A stretch of DNA of 64,000 bases from the NCBI GenBank assembly GCA_964643135.1, contig CAZXPC010000002.1, positions 73,049 through 137,048 on the forward strand. The letters run 5' to 3'. Positions 11 through 60,331 of the stretch are shown one piece after another. Each line of letters starts with the position of its first letter. Within the stretch, counting starts at the first letter, position 1. The position numbers were made by a program, and so were the translations under genes. This DNA is from an uncultured Candidatus Saccharibacteria bacterium (lineage in GTDB: Bacteria > Patescibacteriota > Minisyncoccia > UBA6257 > Colwellbacteraceae). The notes under the pieces were generated by a model that saw only the letters and a list, made by a program, of their open reading frames with translations, did not search any database and was not told the origin of the DNA.

Positions 11-1150
11 ATGAAACTAAATAAAACATATCTTGGTTTTTCTTCAGCATTCTTGTTATTAGTTATAGGTTATCTGTTCTCAGTTTCCGCAGTCCTGGCC
101 GCCCCCACCCAAAACCCTCCCAATGGCGGAGTGATCCAGATAACCCCTTCAGCTACCGTCACCCCTCTCGTCATCAATGCCGCTACCGGAGCCATCACAA
201 CCGGTATTTGGAACGGCACTCCCGTTAGCCTCATCTATGGCGGCACTGGCCGAGCTATCACCGACTCTGCGAGCAAGACCGCCTTCAGAAACGATGTCCT
301 AGCCGCCCAAGGCAACGGCCAGAATGATGATATTACCGCCTTCTCTATCCTTAACAGCATCACGAGTAACACTTCTTTAGCCCTGAATGCCGGAGGCTCC
401 AACCAAAACATCACCCTGACTCCATCGGGGACGGGCTATACCATTCTGAATGGCAAGGTGGGAATTGGGATTGCGATTCCGCTGTCTACCCTTCATGTTA
501 GATCTTCAGGGAATGCCTTTGAAAGACTAGACGCAGATACGGGCGGCTATGCCGGCCTACAATTTAATACCGGTTCGACGGTAAACTGGACTATTCAACG
601 GCCGCCTAGCACAACCGACTTGAGGTTCAACGATGGTTCGGCGGATCGGCTAACGCTGAAGAACGGCGGCAACATTACCATTGCAGGCACGCTCGATTTG
701 GGTGCGAATAAAATTACCAACGTAGCTGCTCCGACGGCTAGTTCTGATGCTGCAACTAAAGGCTATGTTGATGCCGCGGCTGGAGGATGTAGCGGTTCTC
801 CAAAGGCTACCAACGACACTAGCCCATGGAATTATACTGGCGTTCTGGCAAACCTAACCGCATATGGTCCTTACGCCAGCCTATCTCCAGCTTTCAGCCA
901 AAACGGCTGTGTTTTTGGAGTATCAGTCTGGAACAAAAGCGGCACAAGTACGTCAATGAGTCTCGAGCTTTCAGTCGATGATGCCTCGAACACAGTGATA
1001 GCAGTAATTCCAATAGCATCATACACTGGTACTACACAGTATGTTTATTTCCCTCCCGTTCAAGTTGCCAGCGGACGCACTGTGCGTGGGCGCCTAGCTA
1101 CACATGATAATGCCCCCACTATTGATTTATCACTGCTCATGGATCGATAA
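11..1150 (+). CDS. Secreted protein with a phage tail-fibre-like motif
   Basis: N-terminal signal peptide (…FSVSAVLAAP…). Thr/Gly/Ser/Asn-rich. Contains LDLGANKITNVAAPTASSDAATKGYVD, the conserved motif found in phage tail fibres and CPR surface fibres. Confidence 0.5.
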   Translation: MKLNKTYLGFSSAFLLLVIGYLFSVSAVLAAPTQNPPNGGVIQITPSATVTPLVINAATGAITTGIWNGTPVSLIYGGTGRAITDSASKTAFRNDVLAAQGNGQNDDITAFSILNSITSNTSLALNAGGSNQNITLTPSGTGYTILNGKVGIGIAIPLSTLHVRSSGNAFERLDADTGGYAGLQFNTGSTVNWTIQRPPSTTDLRFNDGSADRLTLKNGGNITIAGTLDLGANKITNVAAPTASSDAATKGYVDAAAGGCSGSPKATNDTSPWNYTGVLANLTAYGPYASLSPAFSQNGCVFGVSVWNKSGTSTSMSLELSVDDASNTVIAVIPIASYTGTTQYVYFPPVQVASGRTVRGRLATHDNAPTIDLSLLMDR

Positions 1151-8072: not shown

Positions 8073-8747
8073 ATGCAATTTTACATCGTCACACTTTTTC
8101 CGGAAGTTATTGAGGCTTACACCAATGAGTCTATTATTGGTCGGGCGGTTAAAAATAAGCTGATCAAGGTTAAGACTGTTAATTTGCGCGAGTACGGAGA
8201 AGGTAAGCGGCGGAATGTTGATGAGCGCGCGTATGGCGGCGGGCCGGGGATGGTACTAAAGATTGGTCCGATATTAAAAGCGATCCAATATTTAACTAAA
8301 AGCTATAAGCTAAAAACTAAAAGCTCTAAAATTATTATTACTTCAGCTGGCGGGAAAACTTTTGATGACAAAATGGCGATCAATCTCTCAAAAAAGTTTA
8401 GAGATATTATAATTTTATGCGGTCACTACGAGGGGATTGATGAACGACTTAAGAAAATCCTGAAAGATCAGGGTTTCGCGGTGGAAGAGGTTTCGATAGG
8501 GGATTATGTTTTAACCGGCGGCGAATTGCCGGCGCTTGTTATGCTCGACTCGATTGCGCGGAAAATTCCTGGCGTTTTAGGCAAATTTGAATCGCTCGAG
8601 GAGAACCGCCTTGGCGCGGGCGTGCCGAGCTACACCCGGCCGGAAACTTTCAAATACAGAGGTGTCACCTATGCAGTTCCGAAAGTGCTGCTTTCGGGCC
8701 ACCATGCAGAAATTGAGAAGTGGAGAGCAAGCAAAAAGAAAATTTGA
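8073..8747 (+). CDS. trmD: tRNA (guanine37-N1)-methyltransferase TrmD
   Basis: MQFYIVTLFPE…YGGGPGMVLK…CGHYEGIDERL…LTGGELPALVMLDS. Classic SPOUT TrmD motifs. Confidence 0.9.
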   Translation: MQFYIVTLFPEVIEAYTNESIIGRAVKNKLIKVKTVNLREYGEGKRRNVDERAYGGGPGMVLKIGPILKAIQYLTKSYKLKTKSSKIIITSAGGKTFDDKMAINLSKKFRDIIILCGHYEGIDERLKKILKDQGFAVEEVSIGDYVLTGGELPALVMLDSIARKIPGVLGKFESLEENRLGAGVPSYTRPETFKYRGVTYAVPKVLLSGHHAEIEKWRASKKKI

Positions 8748-38045: not shown

Positions 38046-38116
38046 TCTAATACAGAAATCGCCCTAATGCCACTTGCCTGGAACTCGAAGGGGATTTATA
38101 ATTCCACATAAACAAA

Positions 38117-38794
38117 ATGATTAATTTTCTGCTTTATGTGGTCATCTGGCTGCCGATTATATTTTACTGGGCGGTTTTTGTAGCGGCGCTATTGCTATAT
38201 GCTTTTAGGCATCACGAGAAAGCGGCGATTAAGTCGAAATTTTTGAACTACAGGGTGATTATCATCGGGACGATCGTTTTCCGGTTCCTCTATGCGCTCT
38301 TGGAATCGGTTGCGCAATATTACGTTTGGACGACCAGCGATCTGACCAGGAGTTTGCTGAACAGCCCCCTTAGCGACAAGGTGCCGCCGGAGGGTTTTAT
38401 TGTGCAGGCTTTCCCATCGCTCTTTAAGACTGGGGCGGGATACTTCTTGTATTATGCTTACGGCCGGTTTTTTCTAAACGCCATACTCGTCGTTATCTGC
38501 GCTTTTATTTTCTACTTTATTCTAAAAGCTCTACAGAAATACCAGGATCGGTTCTTTGATACGGGCGAGACTGAATTGGGCTTTTTGTGCTGCCTCATCG
38601 TCGGCTGGCCGGCCTTTGTGGTTTTTGTGCCGCTCGCTTTTGTGGCGGTTGTCATTGTCTCTGTTTTCCGCGGTATTTTCTTCAGGGAACTTTATACCAC
38701 GCTGGGCTATCCGTTCCTTTTGGCCGCGCTGATGTGCCTGATACTCGGGGAAAACTTGATTACGATGTTCAATCTCCTGGTCTTGAAAGTGTAG
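38117..38794 (+). CDS. Integral membrane protein (~6 TM), hypothetical
   Basis: Hydrophobic. Weak similarity to the prepilin-peptidase GGGDVKL region that lacks the catalytic Asp, so not called as PilD. Confidence 0.35.
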   Translation: MINFLLYVVIWLPIIFYWAVFVAALLLYAFRHHEKAAIKSKFLNYRVIIIGTIVFRFLYALLESVAQYYVWTTSDLTRSLLNSPLSDKVPPEGFIVQAFPSLFKTGAGYFLYYAYGRFFLNAILVVICAFIFYFILKALQKYQDRFFDTGETELGFLCCLIVGWPAFVVFVPLAFVAVVIVSVFRGIFFRELYTTLGYPFLLAALMCLILGENLITMFNLLVLKV

Positions 38795-38797
38795 GAG

Positions 38798-38830
38798 GAA
38801 CTCATAACTGATAACGTATAACTCATAACA
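38798..38830 (+). repeat. ATAACTCATAAC-type repeat arm (left arm of the cassette around the 4HB gene)
   Basis: AACTCATAACTGATAACGTATAACTCATAAC. Its reverse-complement partner lies at 39196-39254. Confidence 0.6.
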
Positions 38831-38832
38831 AT

Positions 38833-39195
38833 TTGGAAATCTTTAGATTTAAAAATTGGAAAGTTTATAAGGAATCCAAGGATTTGTTTAAACTTCTACT
38901 CAAGATATCTGATAAATTGCCTAAGGATTATAAATATTCTATTGGTTCGCAGGTTTTAAGGTCGGGGCTGTCGATCATCCTAAACATTGCAGAAGGTAGC
39001 GGCAAAGATTCTGATAAAGAATTAAATCGATATTTCAACATATCCATAGGTTCAATAAATGAGACTTTGGCATTTACTGATACATTGACCGATTTAGGCT
39101 TGATAACGGCAACTGAGTTCCAGAATGTATATAAATTATGTGAGAGCATCTCTCGGCAGTTGGGTGGTTTTAAGAGAAGGCTTAAAGAAGAATAG
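38833..39195 (+). CDS. Four-helix-bundle protein (TIGR02436, 23S rRNA intervening-sequence protein family); TTG start
   Basis: …LSIILNIAEGSGKDSDKELNRYFNISIGSINETLAF… The family signature NIAEG…S.E is present. Confidence 0.7.
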   Translation: MEIFRFKNWKVYKESKDLFKLLLKISDKLPKDYKYSIGSQVLRSGLSIILNIAEGSGKDSDKELNRYFNISIGSINETLAFTDTLTDLGLITATEFQNVYKLCESISRQLGGFKRRLKEE

Positions 39196-39254
39196 GTTTT
39201 AAGTTATAATATGGAAGTTATTAGTTATGAGTCATAAGTTATAAGTTACCCGAT
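39196..39254 (+). repeat. ATAACTCATAAC-type repeat arm (right arm: GTTATTAGTTATGAGTCATAAGTTATAAGTTAC)
   Basis: Reverse complement of the motif at 38798-38830. Ends at the pilB start codon. Confidence 0.6.
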
Positions 39255-40967
39255 ATGCACTTAACTCCCGATAAACTTAAAATTTTACTGCGAGAATCCG
39301 GCGTGGTTGACGAGGATGCTTTTGATACGGCGGTTAAAGAAGCTGAGCAGACCGGCCGCTCGGTGGAAGAAATTTTAATTGCCCGCGGCGATGTGCCGGA
39401 ACACTACCTAACCGAGCTCTTAGCTAAATATTTTAATGTTCCGGTTGTGAATCTCGACTCGGTTGTGATTCCCAAAGAAGTAATCGAGCTTATTCCCGAG
39501 AGCTACGCTCAGCTTAAGAAGCTAGCCATCTTCGATTACAAAAAGGGGGAGTACGCCAAGGTCGCCATGCTGGACCCGCTCGACTACGACGCGATCGAAT
39601 ATTTGAAAACTAAGCTGGGTGTGGCGATCCAGCCCTCTCTTACGACCGGTTCCAGCCTGAGCAATGCTTTGAAGCAGTACAAGGAGCAAATCGGGAATGA
39701 ATTTAGCAAGATCATCCGCGAGAACGTGGAAAAATCGGTTACTCAAACCGGAGAAACCGACCTGGCCAAAATGGCGGCCGCCGTGCCGGTGGTGGCCATT
39801 CTAAAAAGTATTATCGAATACGCTATTTCTTTAAATGCGTCGGACATTCACTTTGAGCCGTTTTTCCAGAATTTGGTTATCAGGTACCGCGTCGACGGCG
39901 TTTTGCGCGAGGCTTTCGATTTGCCCAAACAAGTCGAGCCGACCATTGTGGCGCGCGTTAAAATTTTGGCCAACTTGCAGATCGACGAGCACCGCCTGCC
40001 GCAGGACGGCCGATTCAAATTTAATGTGACGGAAAAAGAAACGATTGATGTGCGTGTCAACATTATCCCGGTGCTTTACGGCGAAAAGGCGGAAATGAGG
40101 CTGTTGCGGAGCAGTTCGCGGCCGATTATGCTGGAAGACATCGGCTTCTCTAAAGAGGCGGTTGAAAAGGTGAACGACGAGATTCGGAAACCGCACGGTA
40201 TGATTTTGGTTACCGGTCCGACCGGTTCCGGTAAAACGACGACTCTTTACGCGATTTTGAGTATTTTGAATACGCCCAAGGTTAACATTACGACCATTGA
40301 AGACCCGATCGAGTACGAAGTTTCGGGCATCAACCAGATTCAGGTCAACACGAAAGCGGGCGTAACTTTTGCGTCGGGGCTGCGCGCTATTTTGAGGCAG
40401 GACCCGAACGTGATCATGATTGGTGAAATTCGCGACAACGAAACGGTTGAGATCGGCATTCAGGCGGCCTTGACCGGACACTTGGTTTTGTCGAGCTTGC
40501 ACACCAACGACGCGCCGTCGGCTCTGCCGAGGCTCTTGGACATGGGGGCGCCGGCGTTTTTGCTTGCTTCAACCGTTAACCTCTCAATCGCGCAGAGGCT
40601 GGTTCGTAAAATTTGCACTTCCTGCATCGAATCATACGTGCCTTCGGAAGAGTCCCGGCGGCTCGCTTTGGCGCAGTTTGAATTGGCCGGGCACAAGATT
40701 GACAAAGAGGCTATTCCTAAAAATCTATACCGCGGCAAGGGCTGTAATGTCTGCACCAATACCGGCTACCGCGGCCAGATCGCTATTTTTGAACTTATGA
40801 AAATGAGCGATGCGATCAGGGCTATGGTTTTGAAGATGGCCCCGTCGGGAGAGATCAGAGAACAGGCGATCAAAGAAGGTATGACGACGATTTTTGAGGA
40901 CGGCCTCGATAAAGCGAAAAAGGGGATCACCACGCTCGATGAGGTCCTGCGCGTGATACAAGAATAA
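39255..40967 (+). CDS. pilB: Type IV pilus assembly ATPase PilB (GspE family)
   Basis: N-terminal GSPII_E_N-like domain. Walker A GPTGSGKTTTLYA. Asp box, His box. Tetracysteine CTSC…CNVC. Confidence 0.9.
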   Translation: MHLTPDKLKILLRESGVVDEDAFDTAVKEAEQTGRSVEEILIARGDVPEHYLTELLAKYFNVPVVNLDSVVIPKEVIELIPESYAQLKKLAIFDYKKGEYAKVAMLDPLDYDAIEYLKTKLGVAIQPSLTTGSSLSNALKQYKEQIGNEFSKIIRENVEKSVTQTGETDLAKMAAAVPVVAILKSIIEYAISLNASDIHFEPFFQNLVIRYRVDGVLREAFDLPKQVEPTIVARVKILANLQIDEHRLPQDGRFKFNVTEKETIDVRVNIIPVLYGEKAEMRLLRSSSRPIMLEDIGFSKEAVEKVNDEIRKPHGMILVTGPTGSGKTTTLYAILSILNTPKVNITTIEDPIEYEVSGINQIQVNTKAGVTFASGLRAILRQDPNVIMIGEIRDNETVEIGIQAALTGHLVLSSLHTNDAPSALPRLLDMGAPAFLLASTVNLSIAQRLVRKICTSCIESYVPSEESRRLALAQFELAGHKIDKEAIPKNLYRGKGCNVCTNTGYRGQIAIFELMKMSDAIRAMVLKMAPSGEIREQAIKEGMTTIFEDGLDKAKKGITTLDEVLRVIQE

Positions 40968-41067
40968 CTCTAACTCATAACCAATAACTCATCACTAATC
41001 ACAGTGGACTTTTAGGATTTAACTCATTGTAATGTATAATTGTCATAAGTAATAAGTTATTAGTTAT
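40964..41067 (+). repeat. ATAACTCATAAC-type palindromic element with no gene inside (pilB-pilC intergenic)
   Basis: Left arm TAACTCTAACTCATAACCAATAACTCATCAC overlaps the pilB stop. Right arm TGTCATAAGTAATAAGTTATTAGTTAT ends at the pilC start. Confidence 0.6.
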
Positions 41068-42294
41068 ATGTTATTCACTTACGAAGCTTTTAATCGGAAT
41101 GGCGCTATTGTTACGGGTGAAGTCGACGCCGAAGATGAGAGAGGCGTAGTTTTATATCTCGAAACCAAAGACTTAATTCCGTCGAAGATCCGGCCCAAAG
41201 GCGAGAAGGGCGGTATATTAGATTTAAAATTTCTGCAGAAAATCAGGCTCTTTGAAAGAGTTAAGACGACCGACATTATCTTCTTGGTCCGGAACTTGGC
41301 GACTGCGATCAAGGCCGGCCTTAGCATTTCCGAGGCGCTTGAAATATTGATCAATGACTCCAAGCCGGGAACTTTGCGGTATGTTTTAATCAGCGCCAAG
41401 GCCACTGTTCAAGCCGGGCGGCCGCTTTCAGACGCTTTTGAGCAATATAAGAAAATATTCCCGTCGGTTTTTATCGGCCTCATTAAAGCCGGCGAGGTTT
41501 CGAGCCGTTTGGATAAGGCGCTCGAGGAACTCTCGAACCATTTGGTGAAGGAATATAACTTGGTGCGCAAAATCCGGTCGGCCATGGTTTATCCGGCTCT
41601 GCTTTTAGTGGCCACGATCGGCGTAACTGTTTTTTTGCTGACGGTTGTTTTGCCGAAGCTCACTAAAGCCTTCCAGCAGAGCAACGCTTCACTGCCGCTC
41701 ATCACGAAAATCCTTCTCGCGACCGGCACCTTTATGGCGCATAATTTTATTATTCTCTCGATTATCACGACAGCTCTGATCGGCGGATTTATCTATATGG
41801 CCAGCACCGAAAGGGGCAAGCTTTATATCGAAAAAATATTATTGAAGATTCCCGTTGTGAACGAGCTGATGAAGCGGGTCGACCTGGTGCGTTTTACCCG
41901 GACGCTGGGCAGTTTGCTCGCGAGCGCGATGCCGGTTTTAGACGCTTTGCAGATTTCAGCCGATGCGATCGGCAGCTATACCTACCGCGCGGCGCTGAAA
42001 GACGTGATCGATAAGGTTAAGTCCGGCGTGCCGCTCTCGAAGAGCCTGCAGTTCCACAAAGACCTTTTCCCGACGCTTTTGACGAGCCTGATTTCGGTGG
42101 GCGAGCGGACGGGCAACCTCGAATATGTGCTCACGACTTTTTCGGATTTCTACGATGAAGAAGTCGACAACAAGCTGAAAGACCTGACAACGCTTTTCGA
42201 ACCGATTATGCTCCTGGTGATGGGTGTTATCGTGGGCGGCGTCGCGCTTTCGATACTCTTGCCGATCTACAGCCTGGTCAGCCAGTTCACCTAA
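41068..42294 (+). CDS. pilC: Type IV pilus platform protein PilC (GspF family)
   Basis: Two GspF repeats. 3 TM. …ISEALEIL… and …GERTGNLEYVL…. Confidence 0.85.
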   Translation: MLFTYEAFNRNGAIVTGEVDAEDERGVVLYLETKDLIPSKIRPKGEKGGILDLKFLQKIRLFERVKTTDIIFLVRNLATAIKAGLSISEALEILINDSKPGTLRYVLISAKATVQAGRPLSDAFEQYKKIFPSVFIGLIKAGEVSSRLDKALEELSNHLVKEYNLVRKIRSAMVYPALLLVATIGVTVFLLTVVLPKLTKAFQQSNASLPLITKILLATGTFMAHNFIILSIITTALIGGFIYMASTERGKLYIEKILLKIPVVNELMKRVDLVRFTRTLGSLLASAMPVLDALQISADAIGSYTYRAALKDVIDKVKSGVPLSKSLQFHKDLFPTLLTSLISVGERTGNLEYVLTTFSDFYDEEVDNKLKDLTTLFEPIMLLVMGVIVGGVALSILLPIYSLVSQFT

Positions 42295-42422: not shown

Positions 42423-45400
42423 ATGTTTATTCTAAAAGAGAAAGCTCAGAGGCTAAGGGGGTATAGAAGCGGCTTCACTCTGCTTGAGTTTTTGATTGTC
42501 TCGACGGTGCTGGTGATTTTAGCCGTTGTGGCCATCAATTCTTTCGGCGGTTTTTCGCGCAAAGCTGCAATTGATAGCGCGGCCCGGGCGATTATTTCCG
42601 ACCTTCGGACGGTTCAGAGTAAGGCGGTAGCCGGGACTGATGCCGATAGTGGCGGCTCGGCTGACGACTGGGGAATTTGTTTCGTGCATGCCGCGTCGGG
42701 AGACTATTACCAAACCGTGGGAGCTATGATCGCAGCTTCATGTAAGACAACCGGCTACGATACTGCTTCCGGCGGAGTTGTCCAGGCTAAAATATTTTTG
42801 CCCAGCGGCGTAACTTATTCAACAGCCGATGATTGGTATACCAGCCCCGGCTTCGACGCCATAGTTTTTAATAAAATCAGCGGCACGCCTTCAACTACCG
42901 ACAATGTCATTGTTATCACTTCTTCCCTGGCCGACAAAATTACGACCGTCAGCTCCGATGGGCTTATTACCCAAACCTCAGTTGATATTACCTCTGTCGT
43001 TCCGACTTCAGGAATCAACACCAATTCAGCTTTCCAATTTACTCAAATCAACGGCCACGGTTTTGCGTCGGGTGCCTCGGTCAGCCTCCAGCGAAATATC
43101 CAAGGGACAGTTAATACCATAAGCTGTACCGGTGCGTCGGTCAACGCCACTGGAACGCAGATCACCGGAGCGACATGCAATTTGACCTTAGACAAACCGG
43201 CGAGCTGTACGGGCTGCCATGCTTTGGCGGGCAAGTGGGATGTTTTGGTTACGAATACCGACACCACTTCCGCGACTTTGCCCGGGGGACTCACTGTTAC
43301 CGCCAATCCGCCGACTGTGACTACGATAGTTCCGACCTCGACCGTGAACGACGACACATCGGCTCACAACACGTTAACGACGGTTAACGGTTCTAATTTT
43401 CAGGCCGGCGCAACCGTGCAGCTGACGAGAAGCGGCACGACCATTAATTGCGATACGACTTCTTCGACCATCGTGGCCGGTTCAATTTCGAGCGTCACCT
43501 GTAACGACATCGGCGGCGCTTTGGGCGCGAGCGATTGGAATGTTGTGGTAACCAATACTCTGGGAGATGGCGCCAGCGCTACTTGCAATCCGGCGTCTTG
43601 CTTAACTATCAATAACCCGACGCCGACTATAGCCGTGGGCAGTCTTACTCCGAACAGATCTAGCGCTGGCGATAGTGTGGATATAACCCTGGTCGGGGAT
43701 TCGACAGCTAACAACGGACATAATTTTGCGACCAATGCCAAAGTAAAATGGGACTGTACCAGCGACTGCACAACCGATGCTTCGAGTACAGGCATAAGCA
43801 ATGTCGTTGTCAATTGGTCCACCGATACCATTACCGCGACCGTCGCTTCGTCGTTAACAACAACCGCTGGCAGCCCTCACGCGGTCAAAGTTTTTAATCC
43901 AACTCCCGGAGGTGGCATTTCGACAAACTCGGAGCCATTTACGGTGAGCGGGGGCGCTACTTTCGGGATTACCGGCCTTAAAACTTCCGGCAGCTGTCCG
44001 GGCAGCGCTTCGGTTACGAGCAATAACGCCGGTTCTTTTGCATTCGATATTTGCGGGTCAGGTTTTTCCACAATTTCTGGCGACGTTAAAGTAACTCTTC
44101 ATGAGTCCGGCCAGCCGACCATAACCTGCAGCGGTTTCACCGTGGCGGCCAACCTCATAACCGGCGCCTCGTGCGATTTAACTAACGTGGCGGTTGCGAG
44201 CGATTGGGATGTTTGGGTAACCAACCTCTCAACCGATTCGACTGCCAAATGCTCTGACGTTGGGGGCACCGGGCCGACCCCGCGCTGCGAAGTGATTGTC
44301 ACCGCGCAGGGAGTTTCGGTGGGAAGCATCACGCCGGCTAATGGCATTCAGTTTACCTGGAACCAGCCGATTTTAGCCATTAGCGGGACCAGTTTTTCCG
44401 GCACGCCAACAGTAACCCTTACTAATGGCGGGTCCACTATAACTTGCACTGGTTTTACGGTGGCTAGTTCAACCTTGCTCATAAACGGTAGCTGTCCGAT
44501 TACTAATACAACTGCTGCCACCACCTGGACTGTACACGTGATTGTTGGCGCCTCTGATGCCACATGCGCGTGTTTTTCGATTGTAACTGCCGCTAATAAT
44601 GCCACGCTTACGCCAATAGCGCGTTTTTGGTTCCCGGCGGTTGGCGGAAGTTGCGGCTTGAGCGCTTGCGGGACCGGCAGCTGGAGTACCACCAACACCT
44701 TGAATTGGGCGACTACGCCAACCGGTTTAGGCACGGACGGCATAACTCCTACCACCGGCGCGACTGTGCCTACGACGGCGACAGATGTTTATTTTACTAA
44801 GAATTCTTTTACGGCCGACGGGGAAACAGTTACGGTTTCGAACCCTGCCTCCGCATCAAGTCTGGTTTTTTCAGGACCCGACGGGGTAAGCAAAAATATC
44901 ACTTTTACCGGTGGGGCCGAAGCAATTACTTTAGGCGATGCGACCCATGATGGCTCATTGAACTTTCAGCCTTCATGCCCTAGCACTTGCACAATAACTC
45001 GTAGTGGTGAGACTGGAGATATCAACTTCAAGTCGGGCCACGTGGGACAAGTTGCTAACTTTGCCGCGAAAGACACCGACCCCAGCTCCACCCAAAATTC
45101 TTTCGGCAAAGTTTTCTTTAATAACGGCGGAACCTATACGTTTATCAACCCATATAATTCAAACACTGCGGCTAGCAACGACATTGCTATTCTAAATTCA
45201 ACCACTGTTAATACCAATAACAACGCCCTGATATTCGGGTCCCTCACTTTCAGTTCCGGAACATTTAACCTGGGCACTAGCACCGTAACTCTTAAAGACA
45301 GCGGCAGCACGAGTTGGAGTGTGACCGGCGGAACTTTAAACGCCGCTTCCAGCACTATCGCGGTTAGTCCGGCGAGTTCCGGCACCAATACTTTTTTGGG

Positions 45401-48400
45401 CGGCGGCAAGACCTATAGCGATGTTACTTTTTCAAGCAACAATACCAATGTGACCTTAGACAGCGATGCCGCTAACAGTACCTTTAACGACATTACTTTT
45501 AGCAATACCGGCACAGTCGCATACGGAGCCGCTAGCCAAGCGACGACGGCACATGACGTCAAATTCAATAACACCAATCAGGCCGTAACGGTTAACGGCA
45601 CGGCGAATGTTTTTTACGGTATTGTTGTTAAGTGTCAAGACACTTGCGCGGGAGACACAGGCGCATTTACTTTGAGCAGCGGCTCCTCGAGCACCTTCTA
45701 TAAAACTGCGAAATTTAATAATACGACGGGCGGCACTTCCATCAGCGGCAGCAATACTTTTACCGGCGCCGTCACGTCTGCCGGAACAGTTTCAATTACC
45801 GGCAGCAGCAATACGTTTTCCAGCACGCTCGACATAGGCGGCAGCGGCAACCTGACCGTGAGCGCGAGCCAGACTTCCAACGATTATAAGGCAGCAGTTA
45901 CGGTGGCCGGCAATGCAACCTTGGAGTCGGGCAACCATTTCGAATCGACTTTAACGATTTCGGGAACGACCGCCTCGTCGATGGCCGGCGCGAGCGGCAC
46001 TTCGGCCAACAATTTTGACGATGTGGTCCGATTCGGCGGTAGTACTACCATTAAGGGGACCAACAACACCTTCGCTAAGACGCTTTGTATAGGCACGAAT
46101 AGCGGCTGCACTACGGGCTCCGGTGATTTGATATTCCATAATACGACCAACGACAACCTTGTCCACGACAACACTTTTACGGGCGCCGTCACGGTTATGG
46201 GAGTGCTGACTATGAATACTTTGCCATACGCTAATACTTTTGGAGCTAACGGGCACACCGGCGCGATCCTGACGGTGAACGGCACCACTGCTTCGTCCAT
46301 ATCAGGCAAAGGCAGCGGCACGGCCGGCAACAAATTCAACGGCGATGTTTCGATTGCCGGGACGACCAACATTAACGCCGACAACAACGAAATTACCGGC
46401 TCTTTCACTACGACCGGTTCGAGCCACGTTAATAATTTGGTTTTGACCGGCTCGGCCGGACACGACAACAAATTTGATGGAGCAGTTACAGTTGATGGAG
46501 TGCTCAATATGAATACCTCTAATACCAACACTTTTTCCGGCGCGGTCACGGTTAACGGCACCGGCACCTCGACCGTCTCAACGGGCAATACCTTTGATGT
46601 TGGAGCGCCGGTCATTGTAAGCGGAGCGTTGTCCTTGGGGTCAACCAATACGTTTAGAAGCACGGTCAATATTACCGGCGTGCTTACGGCTGTGTCGACC
46701 AACCATTTCGATGACAGCACCCACGACACGCTTACTTGCAACGATGCGGCCAATCCGGTCAATGTTTGCGTGGCGGGCACGACTTTGTCTTCCATGACCG
46801 ATAGCAACACTTTTGCCGGCAATGTTAAATTCTCTGGCGTCGGCGGCAGTGCCAGGGTGACCATGGGATCAGGCAATCAGGTTAATAATCAGAAGACTTT
46901 TAAGGTTATGGGGTCCGGCAATTCGAGCGTGATCGGGACGTCGCTCTTGCCCAACAGCTTTACCGGCACGATGTACTTCGGCGGTCAGCTTACCATTAGC
47001 GGCACTAACAACACTTTTGGAGACACCTCGGGCGACACACTGACTCTTAATACCGGCGACCTGATTTTCAGTTCCGGCGCGAGCACCAACACTTTTGCTG
47101 GCGCGGTTGCGATTACGGCCGGAGTCCTCAATATGCAAGGCACGACCAATACCAATACAAATCAGTTTTTGAGCACGCTCACGGCCGGCGGAAGCGGAGC
47201 CTCGACCATATCTTCCGGCACCAGCACAGGAACGAAAAATACTTTTGCCGGGCTAGCCACTTTTACAGGGAGGCTCGACGTGGGCAATTGGAATGCTTTT
47301 TCGGCCACGCCGACCTCGCTCACTGTGGCGGGGACAGGGACTTCTACGATGGGGCAGGACAATTCCTTTAGCGGGGCGGTGTCGTTCTCAAACGCGGGGA
47401 GCGACCTGACTTTAGCGGCAACCTCCGGGCACACCAACACTTTTAGCGGCGCCTTGACTGTTTCGGGAACGGGTGCATTTACCGGCACGGCCTACGCCAA
47501 CAACACTTTTAGTGGTGCCGTGAATATTGCCAACTCGGCTATGGCCGTAGGGTTAAACACTTGGAACACGGGCAGCTCCCTGACTCTAACCGGGGCTAGT
47601 CCGGCTCTCTCGGGCGGAAACACCTTCAAGGATGTTACGCTGAGCGGCGGCGGAACGGCGACCGTAACCGGAACTAATTCTTTCGTGAATTTGACTCGCA
47701 ACCCGGCCGCGGCTGCGACGTCTGACGGCATAACTTTCCCGGCCAGCGTTACTCAGACTGTGAGCGGCACTCTGACATTAACGGGCCACGATTTGGGCAG
47801 CCGGCTCTTTGTCACTTCCGGCACCCCGGGAACCAGAGCTACTCTTTCGGCGGCTACCGTGGCGCTTTCCAATTCTAACTTCCAAGATATAGCCGCGACC
47901 GGGACTGGAACAAAAACCGGTCCGGCTTGCGATGACGTGGCTGTGTCTACCACCTGGTGCGGAGTGTCCTTGGGAGACAACGGCAACAATACCGGCATAC
48001 ACTTTAGCGCCACCAAAACCTGGTATTGGAAGAGCGCCGGCAACACCGGCAATTGGTCGGACAGCTCGAAGTGGGCCAGCAACTCCGCCGGCACAACTCT
48101 TTGCACCTGTGTGCCTTTGCCTCAGGATACGTCTATTTTTAACGCCAACAGTTTCAACACCGGAAGCCAAATTATACACGTTGATGTTTCGAGAATCGGC
48201 GCCATCGATTTTACCGGCGTTACCAATGCTCCTCAGATTTCATTCGATACAGCGACAACTATTATGGGGGACCCGGCGACCAACGATAACAATATTATTA
48301 CTATGACGAGCGGCACCGGCAGCCCGACTATCGCCGGTACGACTGCGCTCACCTTCGGCAACGTCGGCGTAAGGAAAAAAATAACAAGCGCCACCAAGAC

Positions 48401-53330: not shown

Positions 53331-54035
53331 ATGAAGACTAATCCGAAGAAAGGCTTCAGCTTGATTGAACTCCTTATTTATACGGCTCTTTTTGCCGCTA
53401 TTTCCATTTTCACGACCGGAACTTTTATTTCGGTCAGCAAAGGAGCCGCTAAGAACACTTCTTCTTACGAAGTGGTCTCCAATATGCGGTTTGCCTTGGA
53501 AAAAATCAGGCAAGATGTCAAAAATTCGATTGCGATTATCAGCCCGGTGCCGGACCAATCGAGTTCGACCCTTAATCTTCTGGTTGATACCGTCCAGGTA
53601 GCGTACAGCATCTCGGGCGGAGTTCTCCAGAGACAGACAATCGACCCCGTTTCTGGCAGTGTTCTTACAACTGGCAATATCACGTCCAGTGATACCAATG
53701 TGACCAATATCACTTTCCGATTTTTTGATAATCCTGCCATTCCTTTAGGCGTGGATCTTGCTGCGAGTATTAATACTGATATTTCCGCAAAATATAACAG
53801 CGGTTCGCCTGACTACAGCTACTCCGGAGAGCTGAATCAAACAGCCCTGGTTGAGGGCCGCTTGTCGGTCGAGAGAGGCTACTTCGGCAGTTATATCGGC
53901 GGCGGCGGCAACAACCATCCGACGAATTGTAGCAATGTATATAACAATTGGTGGCGAGAAATCTTCCTAAAAAAGGCCTATGCTCTATTACCGCCGTCAG
54001 GTTTCCCTTGCGTAGCCTCCGTGCCGCCACTATAA
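53331..54035 (+). CDS. Minor pilin / pseudopilin (prepilin-type N-terminus)
   Basis: MKTNPKKG|FSLIELLIYTALFAAISIF. Confidence 0.7.
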   Translation: MKTNPKKGFSLIELLIYTALFAAISIFTTGTFISVSKGAAKNTSSYEVVSNMRFALEKIRQDVKNSIAIISPVPDQSSSTLNLLVDTVQVAYSISGGVLQRQTIDPVSGSVLTTGNITSSDTNVTNITFRFFDNPAIPLGVDLAASINTDISAKYNSGSPDYSYSGELNQTALVEGRLSVERGYFGSYIGGGGNNHPTNCSNVYNNWWREIFLKKAYALLPPSGFPCVASVPPL

Positions 54036-58270: not shown

Positions 58271-58564
58271 ATGCTAAGCAGTATCAAGCCGCTTTCAAAC
58301 CATATTTTCCTTGAGGTCGCCGAAGAGGAGAAAAAGACTAAATCGGGAATTTATATTCCGGAAACTGCGTCGCAGGAGAAGCCGACAACGGGCACGGTGG
58401 TGGCAGCGGGTCCGGGGAAATATAACGACTCCGGCGAGATAGTGCCGATGACGGTTAAGGTCGGCGACAAGGTGCTCTTCAAGAAATACGGCATGGATGA
58501 AATTGAGATTAACGGCAAGAAATATCTGGTCGGCGACGAAGACGACGTACTGGCGATTCTCTAA
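58271..58564 (+). CDS. groES: Co-chaperonin GroES
   Basis: IKPLSNHIFLEVAEEEKKTKSGIYIPETA…GTVVAAGPG…. Confidence 0.9.
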   Translation: MLSSIKPLSNHIFLEVAEEEKKTKSGIYIPETASQEKPTTGTVVAAGPGKYNDSGEIVPMTVKVGDKVLFKKYGMDEIEINGKKYLVGDEDDVLAIL

Positions 58565-58669
58565 CTCATAACACATAACTAATAACAAATAACAAAATGC
58601 AATTAAGAATAAAATTCAGAAACAAAAAGTCGTTATCAGTCATAAGTTATCAGTCATAAGTTATTTATT
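58562..58669 (+). repeat. ATAACTCATAAC-type palindromic element in the groES-groEL spacer
   Basis: Left arm TAACTCATAACACATAACTAATAACAAATAAC overlaps the groES stop. Right arm GTCGTTATCAGTCATAAGTTATCAGTCATAAGTTAT ends 5 nt before the groEL start. Confidence 0.6.
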
Positions 58670-60331
58670 ATGGCCAAGCAAATTTTGTTTAACGAAGCGG
58701 CGCGGGCGGCGATGAAAAAGGGCATCGATAAGCTGGCTAATGCAGTTATGATGACTTTGGGGCCTCGGGGCCGCGCGGTCGTGATTGAGAAAACTTACGG
58801 CGCGCCGCAGGTTACTTTTGACGGCGTTACGGTTGCTAAAGAAATTACACTGGAAGATAAATTTGAAAATCTCGGCGCCGAGCTTATTAAACAAGCGGCG
58901 GACAAGACCAATGACAACGTCGGCGACGGCACGACGACCTCGATTGTTCTAGCCCATGCGCTGATTAATGAAGGCGATCAGGCTATCAAAGAAAGGGGAT
59001 TTAACGTGATCCAGCTTGGGCGCGAACTTCATAAAGCTAGTGAGTCGGTCCTAAAAAGCCTGGAGAGCCAGAAAGAATTGATTAATGATAATAAAAAGAT
59101 CGAAGAAGTCGCGACCCTTTCGGCAAAGGATAAAAATATCGGCAAGCTGATTGCGGAAGTGATGGAGAAGATAGGCAAAGAGGGGGTGGTTACGATCGAA
59201 GACTCCAACACGATCGCGAATAGCTACGAGCTGGTTGAAGGCATGGAATTCGACCGAGGCTATATTTCTCAATACATGGTTTCCAACCCAGAACGCATGG
59301 AATCCTCGATCGATGACCCTTATATTCTCGTAACTGACAAAAAAATCTCTTCGATCAAGGAAATTTTGCCGATTTTGGAAAAGGTGATGGAGAGCGGCAA
59401 GAAAGACTTGGTTATTGTGGCCGAAGATCTTGACGGCGAAGCGCTGACGACCTTGGTTTTGAACAAGATTCGCGGCGTTTTCAATGTTTTGGCGGTTAAG
59501 GCGCCGGGTTTTGGCGACCGCCGCAAAGAAATGCTAGAAGACATCGCGGCTGTAACCGGCGCAGAATTCATTTCTGAAGATCTGGCTAAAAAACTTGAGA
59601 CGACTGATGTTGGCGCTCTCGGCCGAGCGCATCGCGTGGTTTCAACCAAAGATAAGACCATTATCGTTGGCGGCAAAGGAGATAAGAAAAATATTGAAGC
59701 CAGGATTTCCCAGATTAAAGCGCAAATCAAAAAGGCTGAATCCGATTTTGATAAGGAGAAGATGCAGGAAAGGTTGGGCAAACTGTCGGGCGGGGTGGCG
59801 GTAATTCGTGTCGGTGCGCCGACTGAATCGGCTCAAAAAGAATTGAAGCAAAGAGTGGAAGATGCGGTCTCGGCGACCCGCGCGGCCATGGAAGGCGGTA
59901 TTGTCCCGGGTGGCGGCATTGCGCTTTATAATGTCCGCTTGGAATTGGGCGAGGCGAAAGAAGAATATAAAACGGAGGCCGACGCAGCGAGAGCGATTTT
60001 GAAACGCGCTCTGGAAGCCCCGATTACGTCGATTGTGATGAATAGCGGCGAAAAGCCGGAGAAAGTTTTGGAAGAATTAAAGTCTAAAAAGATCGCCTTA
60101 AAGAGTTTGGAGGGAGTTTGGCTGGGATTCAATTCGGAACACAACAAAATAGATGACCTCAAGAAGGCGGGGATTATCGATCCGCTTAAAGTTGTGAAAG
60201 AGGCCTTGATGAATGCGCTTTCAGTGGCGACTAACTATTTAATGATCGGCGCCGCCGTGGCTAATATTCCGGAGAAGAAAGAAAATGCCTCAAATGCATC
60301 TGGCATGTCGGGCATGGGTGGGGAATTTTAA
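58670..60331 (+). CDS. groEL: Chaperonin GroEL
   Basis: [12 protein letters not shown]…[23 protein letters not shown]…[10 protein letters not shown]…. Gly/Met-rich C-terminal tail. Confidence 0.95.

What the first reader, a model, noticed from the sequence alone, without database searches (positions are those of the whole stretch)
38798..39254. ATAACTCATAAC-based palindromic repeat family: one copy encloses a four-helix-bundle (IVS-protein family) gene as a hairpin cassette, others are empty hairpins between operon genes
Four intergenic sites (38798-38830 with 39196-39254, 40964-41067, and 58562-58669) consist of arms built from ATAACTCATAAC-like units on the left and the reverse complement (GTCATAAGTTAT…) on the right. 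The left arm begins at or overlaps the upstream stop codon. The right arm ends at the downstream start codon (4HB gene/pilB, pilB/pilC, groES/groEL). At 38798-39254 the arms flank a complete four-helix-bundle protein gene of the 23S rRNA intervening-sequence protein family. In rRNA IVSs, that family is likewise carried inside an RNase III-processed stem. This suggests an IVS-like hairpin element that can carry a 4HB gene and has spread into mRNA intergenic spacers, where the long stems could act as RNase III processing sites or translational uncouplers between operon genes.
Basis: partly seen in the sequence, partly recalled or inferred. Interest (0 to 1): 0.6.

Follow-up and report, generated by a model that had tools for sequence, protein, structure and literature searches.

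The report
Heptamer-stem hairpin cassettes carrying 4HB genes
Three gaps between genes in this candidate-phyla-radiation bacterium are filled by hairpins whose arms are tandem 7-base repeats, one of which carries a small four-helix-bundle gene. The same design surrounds that gene family in many phyla, which ties ribosomal-RNA intervening sequences to the unexplained heptamer repeats of bacterial genomes.

Summary
Three spacers (38795-39254, 40962-41076, 58559-58669) each consist of a left array of TNATAAC heptamers, a loop, and a right array of the complementary heptamer. Each runs from the upstream stop codon to the downstream start codon. The unit is a 7-mer, not a 12-mer.

One loop is exactly a PF05635/TIGR02436 four-helix-bundle (4HB) gene.
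- **Protein-selected relatives:** of 67 loci, 51 have an upstream heptamer array, against 3 of 140 control ORFs. Period 7 is the best period in 55-57 of the 67. Each locus's own arms pair far better than arms swapped between loci (z = -9.2).
- **Other lineages:** Flavobacteriales, Nostoc, Verrucomicrobia and high-GC contigs show the same architecture with different heptamers.
- **Published cases:** Xanthomonas XCC0516 and the Coxiella 23S IVS each have at least one heptamer arm.

All three window sites are 4HB-occupied in some relatives. The five closest GroEL relatives have no hairpin at groES-groEL.

Heptamer arrays (TAACTGA and GGGAATC repeats) and IVS elements were each known separately. 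I found no paper linking them through the 4HB gene.

RNase III processing of the stems fits the roughly 24-28 bp stem length and the transcribed-spacer locations, but it is untested. Whether the hairpin acts as RNA or as DNA is undecided. I rate this a new variant of a known kind, interest about 0.7.

The parts
38117..38794 (+). Upstream gene of site 1 (225 aa, no Pfam match). Its TAG stop at 38792-38794 abuts the left arm.
   Evidence: A promoter-like site at 38074-38102 precedes it.
38795..38832 (.). Site 1 left arm: GAGGAAC TCATAAC TGATAAC GTATAAC TCATAAC AAT. Four or five heptamer units, with stop codons in all three frames.
38833..39195 (+). Cargo gene: a four-helix-bundle protein (120 aa, TTG start) of PF05635 / TIGR02436. 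It fills the loop exactly.
   Evidence: Relatives are under purifying selection.
39190..39254 (.). Site 1 right arm: period-7 array ...TTATAAT ATGGAAG TTATTAG TTATGAG TCATAAG TTATAAG TTACCCG. It ends 2-6 nt before the pilB ATG.
   Evidence: (TRF 39192-39248, 8.1 copies)
39255..40967 (+). pilB (T2SSE ATPase). Its TAA stop at 40965-40967 is part of the first unit of the site 2 left arm.
40962..41003 (.). Site 2 left arm: GAATAAC TCTAAC TCATAAC CAATAAC TCATCAC TAATCAC.
41004..41041 (.). Site 2 loop (38 nt, no ORF). It has no significant similarity to the ends of 4HB ORFs.
41042..41076 (.). Site 2 right arm: GTCATAA GTAATAA GTTATTA GTTATAT GTTATTC. It overlaps the pilC ATG at 41068.
41068..42294 (+). 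pilC (T2SSF platform protein), the gene downstream of site 2.
58271..58564 (+). groES. Its TAA stop at 58562-58564 lies inside the first unit of the site 3 left arm (CTCTAAC).
58559..58596 (.). Site 3 left arm: CTCTAAC TCATAAC ACATAAC TAATAAC AAATAAC.
58597..58629 (.). Site 3 loop (about 33 nt, no ORF).
58630..58669 (.). Site 3 right arm: (GTTATCA GTCATAA) x2.4, then GTTATTTATT, directly before the groEL ATG.
   Evidence: (TRF 58632-58664, 100% match at period 14)
58670..60331 (+). groEL, the gene downstream of site 3.

Best explanation
**What it is (shown).** The three sites belong to one element family. Each is an intercistronic hairpin whose two arms are inverted tandem arrays of about four 7-nt units. 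In this genome the unit is TNATAAC. Each hairpin fills the spacer from the upstream stop codon to the downstream start codon.

The loop is either short (sites 2 and 3) or holds one promoter-less PF05635/TIGR02436 four-helix-bundle gene that fills it exactly (site 1). This matches the architecture of the ORF-bearing 23S rRNA intervening sequence. Here it sits in mRNA spacers, and in relatives also in tRNA-tRNA and SRP-RNA spacers.

**How it most likely works (inferred).**
1. The element is transcribed as part of the host operon.
2. The arms fold into a stem of about 24-28 bp.
3. That stem keeps the insert as a self-contained RNA domain and is a substrate for RNase III.
4. Cleavage separates the flanking cistrons and releases the 4HB message, so the insert is tolerated inside essential operons.

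The left arm also places stop codons in all three reading frames.

**Turnover (partly shown).** Hairpins are gained and lost on short evolutionary timescales, and 4HB occupancy varies at orthologous sites.
For: **In the window.**
- Heptamer arrays are far above chance.
- The arms pair with each other.
- The 4HB identity is secure.
- The only strong promoter-like site on the + strand lies upstream of the first gene, and there is no terminator-like site at the hairpins.
- Each left arm has stop codons in all three frames.

**In the family, using 67 unique loci chosen by protein alone.**
- An upstream array of at least 3 units occurs in 51 of 67, a downstream array in 39 of 67, and both in 34 of 67. 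In 140 control ORFs the counts are 3, 5 and 0.
- Period 7 is the best period in 55 of 67 upstream flanks and 57 of 67 downstream flanks, against 8 of 174 control segments.
- The 4HB stop codon lies inside the first right-arm unit in 42 of 67.
- Own-arm duplex energy is -28.6 kcal/mol against -22.6 for swapped arms, z -9.2, with 0 of 5000 permutations as low.
- When whole cassettes are folded, the arms pair with each other in 65 of 70, median 24 bp.
- The 4HB ORF has dN/dS of 0.05-0.21 in the closest pairs.

**Contexts are transcribed spacers.**
- Of 58 upstream neighbours, 53 are on the same strand.
- Cassettes occur between tRNA genes and after SRP RNA genes.
- In Flavobacteriales they lie inside suf and MoxR operons.

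**Other phyla show the same design with other heptamers.** These are L024, Riemerella and Nostoc, and high-GC contigs.

**Link to true IVS elements.**
- The Coxiella IVS has a 28-bp stem, GACAGAT heptamers next to its S23p ORF, and proven RNase III cleavage (PMC4990558).
- 23S_rRNA_IVP ORFs occur in insertions in CPR 16S and 23S rRNA genes (PMC11270868).

**Occupancy varies at the same site.**
- The tRNA-Ser(tga)/tRNA-Ser(gct) spacer is occupied in L138 and L139 but empty in L197.
- groES-[4HB]-groEL occurs in L182, and pilB-[4HB]-pilC in six loci.
- The five closest GroEL relatives have no hairpin at groES-groEL.
Against: - No RNA data exist. Co-transcription, stem formation in vivo and RNase III cleavage are all inferred.
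- The two empty window hairpins are only marginally more stable than shuffled sequence (z -1.1 and -1.9).
- Imperfect stem positions show no sense-strand G.U bias. The sense strand is more stable in 26 loci and the antisense in 41, so a DNA-level structure fits equally well.
- Co-orientation with neighbouring genes is no higher than the window's background of 88%.
- An RNase III stem does not explain why the arms are built from 7-nt repeats.
- It also does not explain why hairpins within one genome share a heptamer version independent of GC content.
- Most heptamer arrays in other phyla have no inverted partner (139 solo arrays against 24 pairs).
- The loops of the empty hairpins show no detectable 4HB remnant.
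Confidence: 0.55

Rival explanations
1. The heptamer arrays are arrays of binding sites for a protein. That protein may be the ring-shaped pentameric 4HB protein itself. It would control translation or stability of the neighbouring cistrons and autoregulate its own gene. On this view the hairpin potential is secondary.
For: - MacGregor 2015 proposed a repeat-binding post-transcriptional regulator for TAACTGA arrays next to start codons that lack a Shine-Dalgarno sequence. That paper also suggested the binding protein might be the mobile entity.
- Six of the seven unit positions are constrained.
- Hairpins within one genome share a heptamer version (similarity 0.78 against 0.37, 0 of 5000 permutations), and GC content does not explain it. 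This is what a co-evolving trans-acting factor would produce.
- The 4HB protein is under purifying selection.
- Solved relatives have five chains per entry, and the protein is distantly related to the nucleic-acid-associated Avd protein.
- Many arrays in other phyla have no inverted partner.
Against: - No binding data exist.
- The arms covary as complements, which a model based only on single-strand binding sites does not require.
- The modal arm length is 4 units, not 5 (Rehm 2015).
- The arrays also flank tRNA and SRP RNA genes, where translation is irrelevant.
- Only one 4HB gene was found in 840 kb of array-selected loci. Genome-level co-occurrence was not tested.
Confidence: 0.2
2. The element works at the DNA level as a mobile or recombinogenic palindrome, comparable to REP/RAYT or MITE elements. 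The arms would extrude as a cruciform or as a single-stranded DNA hairpin. The 4HB gene would be the autonomous element's cargo or helper, and the empty hairpins would be non-autonomous copies.
For: - The closest GroEL relatives lack the insertion.
- The same spacers are occupied, empty or absent in different relatives.
- 4HB phylogeny only partly follows insertion site.
- Hairpins within one genome share a heptamer version.
- There is no sense-strand bias in wobble positions.
- The overall pattern of a gene flanked by inverted repeats plus many gene-less copies resembles RAYT/REP.
Against: - No transposase, recombinase or nuclease domain is present. The cargo is a 120-aa helical bundle with no match in PADLOC.
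- No target-site duplication is visible at the junctions.
- The loops of the empty hairpins are unrelated to one another and to 4HB ends.
- Short relatives' spacers already contain AC-type heptamer-like units (L222 and L223), which would equally allow in-situ growth by replication slippage.
- The element boundaries coincide with stop and start codons rather than with a recognisable target sequence.
Confidence: 0.15
3. The arrays are functionless slippage-prone microsatellites that accumulate in AT-rich spacers, and the 4HB association and arm complementarity are incidental.
For: - Heptanucleotide repeats are the most over-represented long simple-sequence repeats in many bacteria (Mrazek 2007, as cited).
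- Unit numbers vary widely, from 3 to 39.
- The Coxiella repeat number varies among strains.
Against: - Own arms pair far better than swapped arms (z -9.2).
- Arrays flank 51 of 67 4HB genes, against 3 of 140 control ORFs.
- The same design recurs with unrelated heptamers in at least five lineages.
- Arm length is consistent at about 4 units.
- The arms are placed precisely from stop codon to start codon.
Confidence: 0.05

Closest known systems
ORF-bearing 23S rRNA intervening sequences (the Leptospira / Coxiella / Xanthomonas type that encodes S23p)
   Same: - An extended terminal stem encloses a PF05635 gene that nearly fills the loop.
- The element is carried inside a host transcript without an evident promoter of its own.
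- The Coxiella stem is 28 bp and contains tandem heptamers whose copy number varies between strains.
- ORF-containing and ORF-less versions occur at the same rRNA sites in CPR bacteria.
   Different: - The window's elements lie between protein-coding cistrons, not inside rRNA helices. In relatives they also lie between tRNA genes and after SRP RNA genes.
- RNase III excision is proven for rRNA IVS elements but untested here.
- The 4HB gene is under purifying selection here, whereas the Coxiella copy is decaying.
TAACTGA intergenic heptamer direct repeats (MacGregor 2015, PMC4679880)
   Same: - It is the same heptamer in a different register: TGATAAC repeated equals TAACTGA repeated.
- The arrays are intergenic and abut start codons of genes without a Shine-Dalgarno sequence.
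- Occasional 'reverse' copies occur inside ORFs, like the one at 55-80.
- The distribution is patchy across phyla.
   Different: - They were described as direct repeats. Only one inverted case was noted.
- No link to 4HB genes was made.
- They were not reported in CPR bacteria.
- In the window the arrays are always in inverted pairs, and the GT-type arm, not the TAACTGA strand, is the one next to the start codon.
Inverted G-rich heptamer repeat pairs of Xanthomonas and Nostoc (Rehm et al. 2015, PMC4692102)
   Same: - Arms of about four heptamers (28 nt) occur as convergent pairs 20-70 nt apart between co-oriented ORFs, starting a few nt after the stop codon.
- The affected spacers include groES-groEL, and an array lies between xpsE and xpsF, which belong to the same protein families as pilB and pilC.
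- A four-unit array overlaps the start of XCC0516, the crystallised 4HB protein.
   Different: - That heptamer is GGGAATC and was interpreted as G-quadruplex-forming. The window's AT-rich arms have no G-tracts, so G-quadruplexes cannot explain the shared preference for four units.
- The palindrome class is opposite: the G/T-rich arm comes first there, and the A/C-rich arm comes first here.
- The 4HB connection was not made.
REP elements with RAYT transposase genes, and MITEs
   Same: - Many short gene-less palindromic copies lie in intergenic spacers, alongside a minority of copies whose inverted arms flank one small gene.
- Sequence is homogenised within each genome.
   Different: - The cargo has no recognisable transposase or nuclease fold.
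- The arms are tandem-repeat arrays rather than a unique palindrome.
- No target-site duplication was seen.
DGR accessory protein Avd
   Same: It is a distant sequence relative. PF22296 scores 20 bits and NF033474 scores 23 bits. It shares the pentameric four-helix-bundle fold family.
   Different: Both scores fall well below the curated cutoffs of 40 and 80 bits. No reverse transcriptase was identified among the neighbouring genes examined (pilB, pilC and a 225-aa ORF with no Pfam match), and template and variable repeats were not searched for.

Membership tests
PF05635 / TIGR02436 four-helix-bundle (23S rRNA IVS protein) family | Profile match above the curated cutoff over the full length | tested here: met
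   - PF05635: 94.8 bits against a cutoff of 33.8, covering profile positions 2-105 of 106.
- TIGR02436: 91.1 bits against a cutoff of 24.
- PDB 2GSC matches at E 4.8e-14.
rRNA intervening sequence (IVS) element | Inserted within a helix of a 23S or 16S rRNA gene | tested here: not met
   All three sites lie between protein-coding genes. Rfam finds no rRNA in the window.
rRNA intervening sequence (IVS) element | Terminal inverted repeats that form an extended stem enclosing the insert | tested here: met
   The arms pair in the minimum-free-energy fold. The window cassette forms 23 arm-to-arm base pairs. In the family the arms pair in 65 of 70 cassettes, median 24 bp.
rRNA intervening sequence (IVS) element | Excision from the precursor RNA by RNase III | not testable with these tools
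   This needs in vitro cleavage or RNA end mapping. It has been shown for Coxiella (PMC4990558).
rRNA intervening sequence (IVS) element | S23p/PF05635 ORF in the loop (ORF-bearing class) | tested here: met
   Met at site 1. Sites 2 and 3 have no ORF. This parallels the ORF-less insertions found at the same rRNA sites.
TAACTGA-type heptamer repeats (MacGregor 2015) | At least two tandem copies of TAACTGA or a one-base variant, intergenic and near a start codon | tested here: met
   The units are TNATAAC, and TGATAAC is TAACTGA in a different register. All arrays but one are intergenic. The orientation next to the start codon is the 'reverse' one.
G-quadruplex-forming heptamer repeats (Rehm 2015) | Four consecutive G-tracts (GGG or longer) able to form a G-quadruplex | tested here: not met
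   The arms contain at most one G per unit.
G-quadruplex-forming heptamer repeats (Rehm 2015) | Convergent pairs of arrays of about four units between co-oriented ORFs, close to the stop codon | tested here: met
   For comparison see S2 Table A of the paper.
MITE / REP-RAYT mobile palindromes | An associated transposase (RAYT or an IS family) and target-site duplication | tested here: not met
   The only recurrent cargo is the 4HB gene. No duplication is seen at the groES-groEL junction when compared with relatives.
Integron gene cassette (attC) | A tandem cassette array next to an intI integrase, with each cassette ending in an attC hairpin | tested here: not met
   The cassettes are single and dispersed inside housekeeping operons. 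No integrase was found among the neighbours examined.
DGR Avd | NF033474 above its cutoff, with an adjacent reverse transcriptase and template/variable repeats | tested here: not met
   NF033474 scores 23.4 bits against a cutoff of 80. The neighbours are a 225-aa ORF with no Pfam match and pilB. Template and variable repeats were not searched for.

The most novel reading that the evidence does not exclude
The four-helix-bundle (S23p/TIGR02436) protein may be the long-sought trans-acting partner of bacterial heptamer repeats. On this reading a ring-shaped oligomer recognises its genome's heptamer version and maintains, propagates or regulates inverted heptamer hairpins throughout the genome. 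Its own gene would sit inside one of those hairpins. That would give a function to a very large orphan family. It would also give a single explanation for rRNA IVS elements, TAACTGA repeats, the 'G-quadruplex' heptamer repeats, and the general excess of 7-nt microsatellites in bacteria.
Probability: 0.15. Interest if true: 0.85.

Novelty: new variant of a known kind. Interest (0 to 1): 0.7.

Why it matters
**It connects three literatures that have not been linked.**
- rRNA intervening sequences and their orphan S23p gene.
- TAACTGA repeats in Beggiatoaceae, Cyanobacteria and Bacteroidetes.
- The G-rich heptamer repeats of Xanthomonas and Nostoc.

All three share one architecture: inverted arms of about four heptamers, optionally enclosing a TIGR02436 gene, placed in transcribed spacers.

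**What follows if this holds.**
- IVS-type elements are not peculiar to rRNA. They are a general class of passenger in operons, tRNA clusters and stable-RNA genes.
- The four-unit preference previously attributed to G-quadruplex formation needs another explanation, because AT-rich arms show it too.
- A very large protein family of unknown function acquires a concrete nucleic-acid partner to test. More than 7,900 relatives were returned in a search that was capped.

**For CPR bacteria specifically.** These organisms largely lack Shine-Dalgarno sequences. How cistrons separated by such hairpins get expressed becomes a tractable question.

Tried and rejected
1. **Empty hairpins as deletion remnants of 4HB cassettes.** By eye the site-2 loop resembled a 4HB 5' end. 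Local alignment of both loops against 71 4HB ORF ends was no better than shuffled loops (P 0.05-0.57). The idea is not supported.
2. **Fixed arm polarity as evidence for a transcription-strand constraint.** I withdrew this. An inverted repeat reads identically on both strands, so polarity only defines a palindrome class.
3. **A sense-strand G.U bias to separate RNA from DNA structure.** The sense strand is more stable in 26 loci and the antisense in 41, which is not significant.
4. **Missing Shine-Dalgarno sequences next to the arms as a special feature.** Rejected, because only 4 of 52 genes in the window have one.
5. **Heptamer version as a by-product of genomic GC content.** Rejected (Spearman 0.06, P 0.71).
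6. **Arrays as promoters or terminators.** No + strand promoter-like or terminator-like hits fall at the hairpins.
7. **Other cargo genes between heptamer arms.** None recur. The other long 'loops' are ordinary genes lying between two neighbouring spacer hairpins.
8. **Known RNA family.** Rfam returns only tRNAs at gathering threshold.
9. **Defence system.** PADLOC returns no match.
10. **Retrieving the source genome to inspect its rRNA operons.** Exact-protein look-ups found no record, and the cluster record carries no name.
11. **4HB genes in array-selected loci from other phyla.** Only 1 was found in 120 loci, so arrays do not predict a nearby 4HB gene.
Full report
**1. The observation**

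Each has a left block of tandem 7-nt units and a right block of the complementary units.
- Site 1 left arm: GAGGAAC TCATAAC TGATAAC GTATAAC TCATAAC.
- Site 3 right arm: GTTATCA GTCATAA GTTATCA GTCATAA GTTATTT.

Statistical support:
- ATAACNNATAAC occurs 12 times, against 0.11 expected from dinucleotide-preserving shuffles.
- Tandem Repeats Finder reports period 7 for all six arms.
- A phased scan finds no comparable array elsewhere in the 64 kb, except one GT-type array at 55-80 inside an ORF.

Position relative to genes:
- The left arms start at the upstream stop codon. At sites 2 and 3 the TAA stop is part of the first unit.
- The right arms end 0-6 nt before the ATG of pilB, pilC and groEL.
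- Each left arm puts stop codons in all three frames within about 30 nt.

Gene identities:
- The ORF enclosed at site 1 (38833-39195, TTG start) is PF05635 (E 4.5e-27) and TIGR02436.
- It has sequence relatives of solved structure, 2GSC and 2RLD, each with five chains per entry.
- It is the only such gene in the window.
- The neighbours are pilB (T2SSE), pilC (T2SSF) and groEL (Cpn60).

Folding: the arms pair with each other in the minimum-free-energy structures. However, the two empty hairpins are only marginally more stable than shuffled sequence (z -1.1 and -1.9).

**2. Where else the repeat occurs**

The hits came from Cyanobacteria, Bacteroidota, Verrucomicrobiota, Planctomycetota, Poribacteria, Desulfobacterota, Beggiatoaceae and CPR.

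Many of these loci show inverted pairs that fill stop-to-start spacers. In L024 (Verrucomicrobia) the two arms enclose another TIGR02436 gene, between ORFs that look like nuoI and nuoJ.

**3. Reverse test: from the protein to the repeat**

A metagenome scan seeded only with a 4HB protein alignment returned 80 loci, 70 of them unique, at 50-68% identity. Inspection showed almost every ORF bracketed by (NN-A-Y-R-A-C)n upstream and (G-T-Y-R-T-NN)n downstream.

| Measure (67 loci with both flanks) | 4HB genes | Controls |
|---|---|---|
| Upstream array, at least 3 units | 51 of 67 | 3 of 140 ORFs |
| Downstream array, at least 3 units | 39 of 67 | 5 of 140 ORFs |
| Both arrays | 34 of 67 | 0 of 140 ORFs |
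| Period 7 is the best period, upstream flank | 55 of 67 | 8 of 174 segments |
| Period 7 is the best period, downstream flank | 57 of 67 | 8 of 174 segments |

Further results:
- The 4HB stop codon lies inside the first right-arm unit in 42 of 67, so the ORF fills the loop exactly.
- The core differs between loci (ATAAC, ACAAC, ACGAC, ATGAC), but the two arms of a locus match each other.
- Own-arm duplex energy is -28.6 kcal/mol against -22.6 for arms swapped between loci, z -9.2, with 0 of 5000 permutations as low.
- When whole cassettes are folded in context, the arms pair with each other in 65 of 70, median 24 bp. The window's cassette gives 23 bp.
- The modal arm length is four units.
- The ORF is under purifying selection, with dN/dS 0.05-0.21 in the closest pairs.

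**4. Forward test: from the repeat to the protein**

In the 120 array-selected genome loci (840 kb), an iterated 4HB profile found only the L024 gene. There were 139 arrays without an inverted partner and 24 inverted pairs. No other cargo gene recurred.

The relationship is therefore asymmetric. 4HB genes live in heptamer hairpins, but most heptamer arrays are empty, and in other phyla many are unpaired.

**5. Other lineages use other heptamers**

| Lineage and locus | Arms |
|---|---|
| Riemerella (L201) | (GGTTYAA)n ... 4HB ... (TTRAACC)n, between an Fe-S assembly gene and the next gene |
| Nostoc punctiforme plasmid pNPUN01 (L202) | (GGGTGTR)n ... 4HB ... (YACACCC)n |
| High-GC viral-collection contigs (L204-L207) | (GTAGGGA)n / (TCCCTAC)n and (GTGGTAC)n / (GTACCAC)n, in 4 of 6 loci |
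| Five Flavobacteriales contexts | Period-7 inverted arms pairing at -21 to -42 kcal/mol |

The Flavobacteriales contexts are sufA-[4HB]-sufB, sufC-[4HB]-sufD, DinB-[4HB]-SpoU and a MoxR operon.

What is conserved is the 7-nt period, the arm inversion and an arm length of about four units. The sequence is not conserved.

**6. Contexts and turnover**

Contexts:
- Of 58 upstream neighbours within 250 nt, 53 are on the same strand. Eight of the 58 are tRNA genes.
- Cassettes and empty hairpins fill tRNA-tRNA spacers.
- Two cassettes directly follow an SRP RNA gene.

Occupancy varies at orthologous spacers:
- tRNA-Ser(tga)/tRNA-Ser(gct) is occupied in L138 and L139 and empty in L197.
- pilB-pilC is occupied in six loci and empty in the window.
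- groES-groEL is occupied in L182, whose GroEL is 70% identical to the window's, and empty in the window.
- A 4HB gene lies directly upstream of pilB in both L140 and the window.

An unbiased sample points to recent gain. The five closest GroEL relatives (73-78% identity) share the window's synteny around groESL, with ftsX upstream and/or LemA downstream. Their groES-groEL spacers are 11-35 nt with no hairpin, so the window's 105-nt module is a gain. No target-site duplication is visible. Two of the short spacers contain two or three AC-type heptamer-like units, which could seed growth in place.

An unbootstrapped tree of the 4HB proteins shows partial clustering by site, for example a tRNA-spacer clade. 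It also shows site switches.

Hairpins in one genome share a heptamer version. Similarity is 0.78 within loci against 0.37 between loci, with 0 of 5000 permutations as high, based on 11 pairs. Genomic GC content does not explain this (rho 0.06).

**7. What is already known**

- **MacGregor 2015 (PMC4679880).** Describes TAACTGA direct repeats, which are the same heptamer in another register, in Beggiatoaceae, Cyanobacteria and Bacteroidetes. They lie next to start codons without a Shine-Dalgarno sequence. The paper proposes a repeat-binding translational regulator. The terms 'four helix' and 'intervening' never occur in it, and only one inverted repeat is recorded.
- **Rehm et al. 2015 (PMC4692102).** Describes GGGAATC and GGGGAYT heptamer repeats in Xanthomonas and Nostoc. 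These prefer four units, lie between aligned ORFs, and form about 70 convergent pairs per genome. The authors interpret them as G-quadruplex repeats.
  - Their Table A lists inverted 28-nt pairs in the groES-groEL, atpA-atpG, atpD-atpC and gltB-gltD spacers.
  - It lists an array between xpsE and xpsF, which belong to the same families as pilB and pilC.
  - It lists a four-unit array 6 nt from bccP that overlaps the start of XCC0516, the 4HB protein crystallised as 2GSC. No inverted partner is recorded for that array.
- **Warrier et al. 2016 (PMC4990558).** Shows that the Coxiella 23S IVS has a 28-bp stem and three or four GACAGAT heptamers next to the S23p ORF, varying between strains. RNase III cuts at the first repeat.
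- **PMC11270868.** Reports 23S_rRNA_IVP ORFs in insertions in CPR 16S and 23S rRNA genes, with ORF-less insertions at the same sites.

Six full-text searches found no paper connecting PF05635 genes with heptamer-built hairpins in general. The library covers open-access papers only, so an earlier description elsewhere cannot be excluded.

**8. Mechanism**

Shown:
- The architecture, its statistical association with the 4HB family, and arm complementarity maintained across diverging heptamers.
- Location in transcribed spacers, variable occupancy, and purifying selection on the cargo.

Inferred:
- The element is co-transcribed with its host operon. The only strong promoter-like site on the + strand (38074-38102) precedes the first gene, and there is no terminator-like site at the hairpins.
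- The stem of about 24-28 bp forms in RNA and is cut by RNase III, as in rRNA IVS elements. This would make the insert harmless inside essential operons and release the 4HB message.

Points in favour:
- The four-unit arm equals the 28-bp Coxiella stem.
- AT-rich arms that cannot form G-quadruplexes show the same four-unit preference.

Weak points of this model:
- There is no sense-strand G.U bias.
- Co-orientation with neighbours is no greater than the window's background.
- It gives no reason for the 7-nt periodicity or for the genome-specific heptamer.

Those last two features fit a sequence-specific trans-acting factor better. The 4HB oligomer is the obvious candidate, but this is untested.

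This organism almost never uses Shine-Dalgarno sequences (4 of 52 genes). It often has a TATAAT-like box 4-12 nt before the start codon (11 of 52 genes, against 2.1 expected). How internal cistrons downstream of such hairpins are initiated remains open.

**9. Verdict**

The interpretation as an IVS-like cassette is partly supported and can be generalised. The processing mechanism is untested.

The individual ingredients were known. The new point is that they are unified around the TIGR02436 gene and extended to mRNA, tRNA and SRP-RNA spacers in CPR bacteria. I rate it a new variant of a known kind, with interest about 0.7.

The source organism is inferred to be a Parcubacteria-group CPR bacterium, from the named GroEL and 4HB relatives.

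Noticed in passing
window, whole (gene starts listed): Shine-Dalgarno-like motifs precede only 4 of 52 genes. In contrast, 11 of 52 genes have a TATAAT-like box ending 4-12 nt before the start codon, where random positions give 2.1 +/- 1.4. This suggests many leaderless mRNAs.
   Followed up: partly
window 8296-8325: A different heptamer array, (CTAAAAG) x 4.3, lies inside the trmD ORF (8073-8747, PF01746). Its 30 nt keep the reading frame, so it may be an in-frame repeat insertion in a housekeeping enzyme.
   Followed up: no
window 55-80: A GT-type heptamer array (GTTATTA GTTATAG GTTATCT) sits inside ORF 11-1150 and encodes a hydrophobic N-terminal segment (LLLVIGYL). It resembles the 'reverse' intragenic TAACTGA repeats reported by MacGregor 2015.
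   Followed up: partly
window 42423-51038 and 53331-54035: A 2871-aa ORF directly after pilC starts with a prokaryotic N-terminal methylation (pilin) motif. A second pilin-like ORF follows. The hairpins therefore sit in a type IV pilus gene cluster that includes a giant pilin-like protein.
   Followed up: partly
L202 about 985-1025 (Nostoc punctiforme pNPUN01): The 4HB ORF itself is interrupted by an internal array of the same GGGTGTR heptamer that forms its flanking arms.
   Followed up: no
L154 2704-2829; L010, L099, L056: Some arrays are greatly expanded. L154 has 15 units between tRNA-Arg and tRNA-Lys, and cyanobacterial loci reach 35-39 units. This indicates strong slippage dynamics.
   Followed up: no
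L164 244-918; L168 2633-3357: A 4HB cassette lies immediately downstream of a bacterial large SRP RNA gene in two related loci. This adds another stable-RNA context besides tRNA and rRNA.
   Followed up: partly
Xanthomonas campestris, S2 Table A of PMC4692102: Inverted four-unit heptamer pairs occupy the groES-groEL spacer, and an array lies between xpsE and xpsF (GspE/GspF). These are the same gene-pair families that carry hairpins in this CPR window. The atp and glt operon spacers are also affected.
   Followed up: partly
L001-L120 versus L121-L200 and the window: The palindrome class is lineage-specific. The A/C-rich arm comes first in all CPR-like hairpins. The G/T-rich arm comes first in 19 of 20 pairs from other phyla, and also in the Flavobacteriales, Nostoc and Xanthomonas examples. 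The reason is unknown.
   Followed up: partly
L132 1-2187: A 16S rRNA 3' portion is followed by a group I intron match, upstream of a 4HB cassette on the same contig.
   Followed up: no
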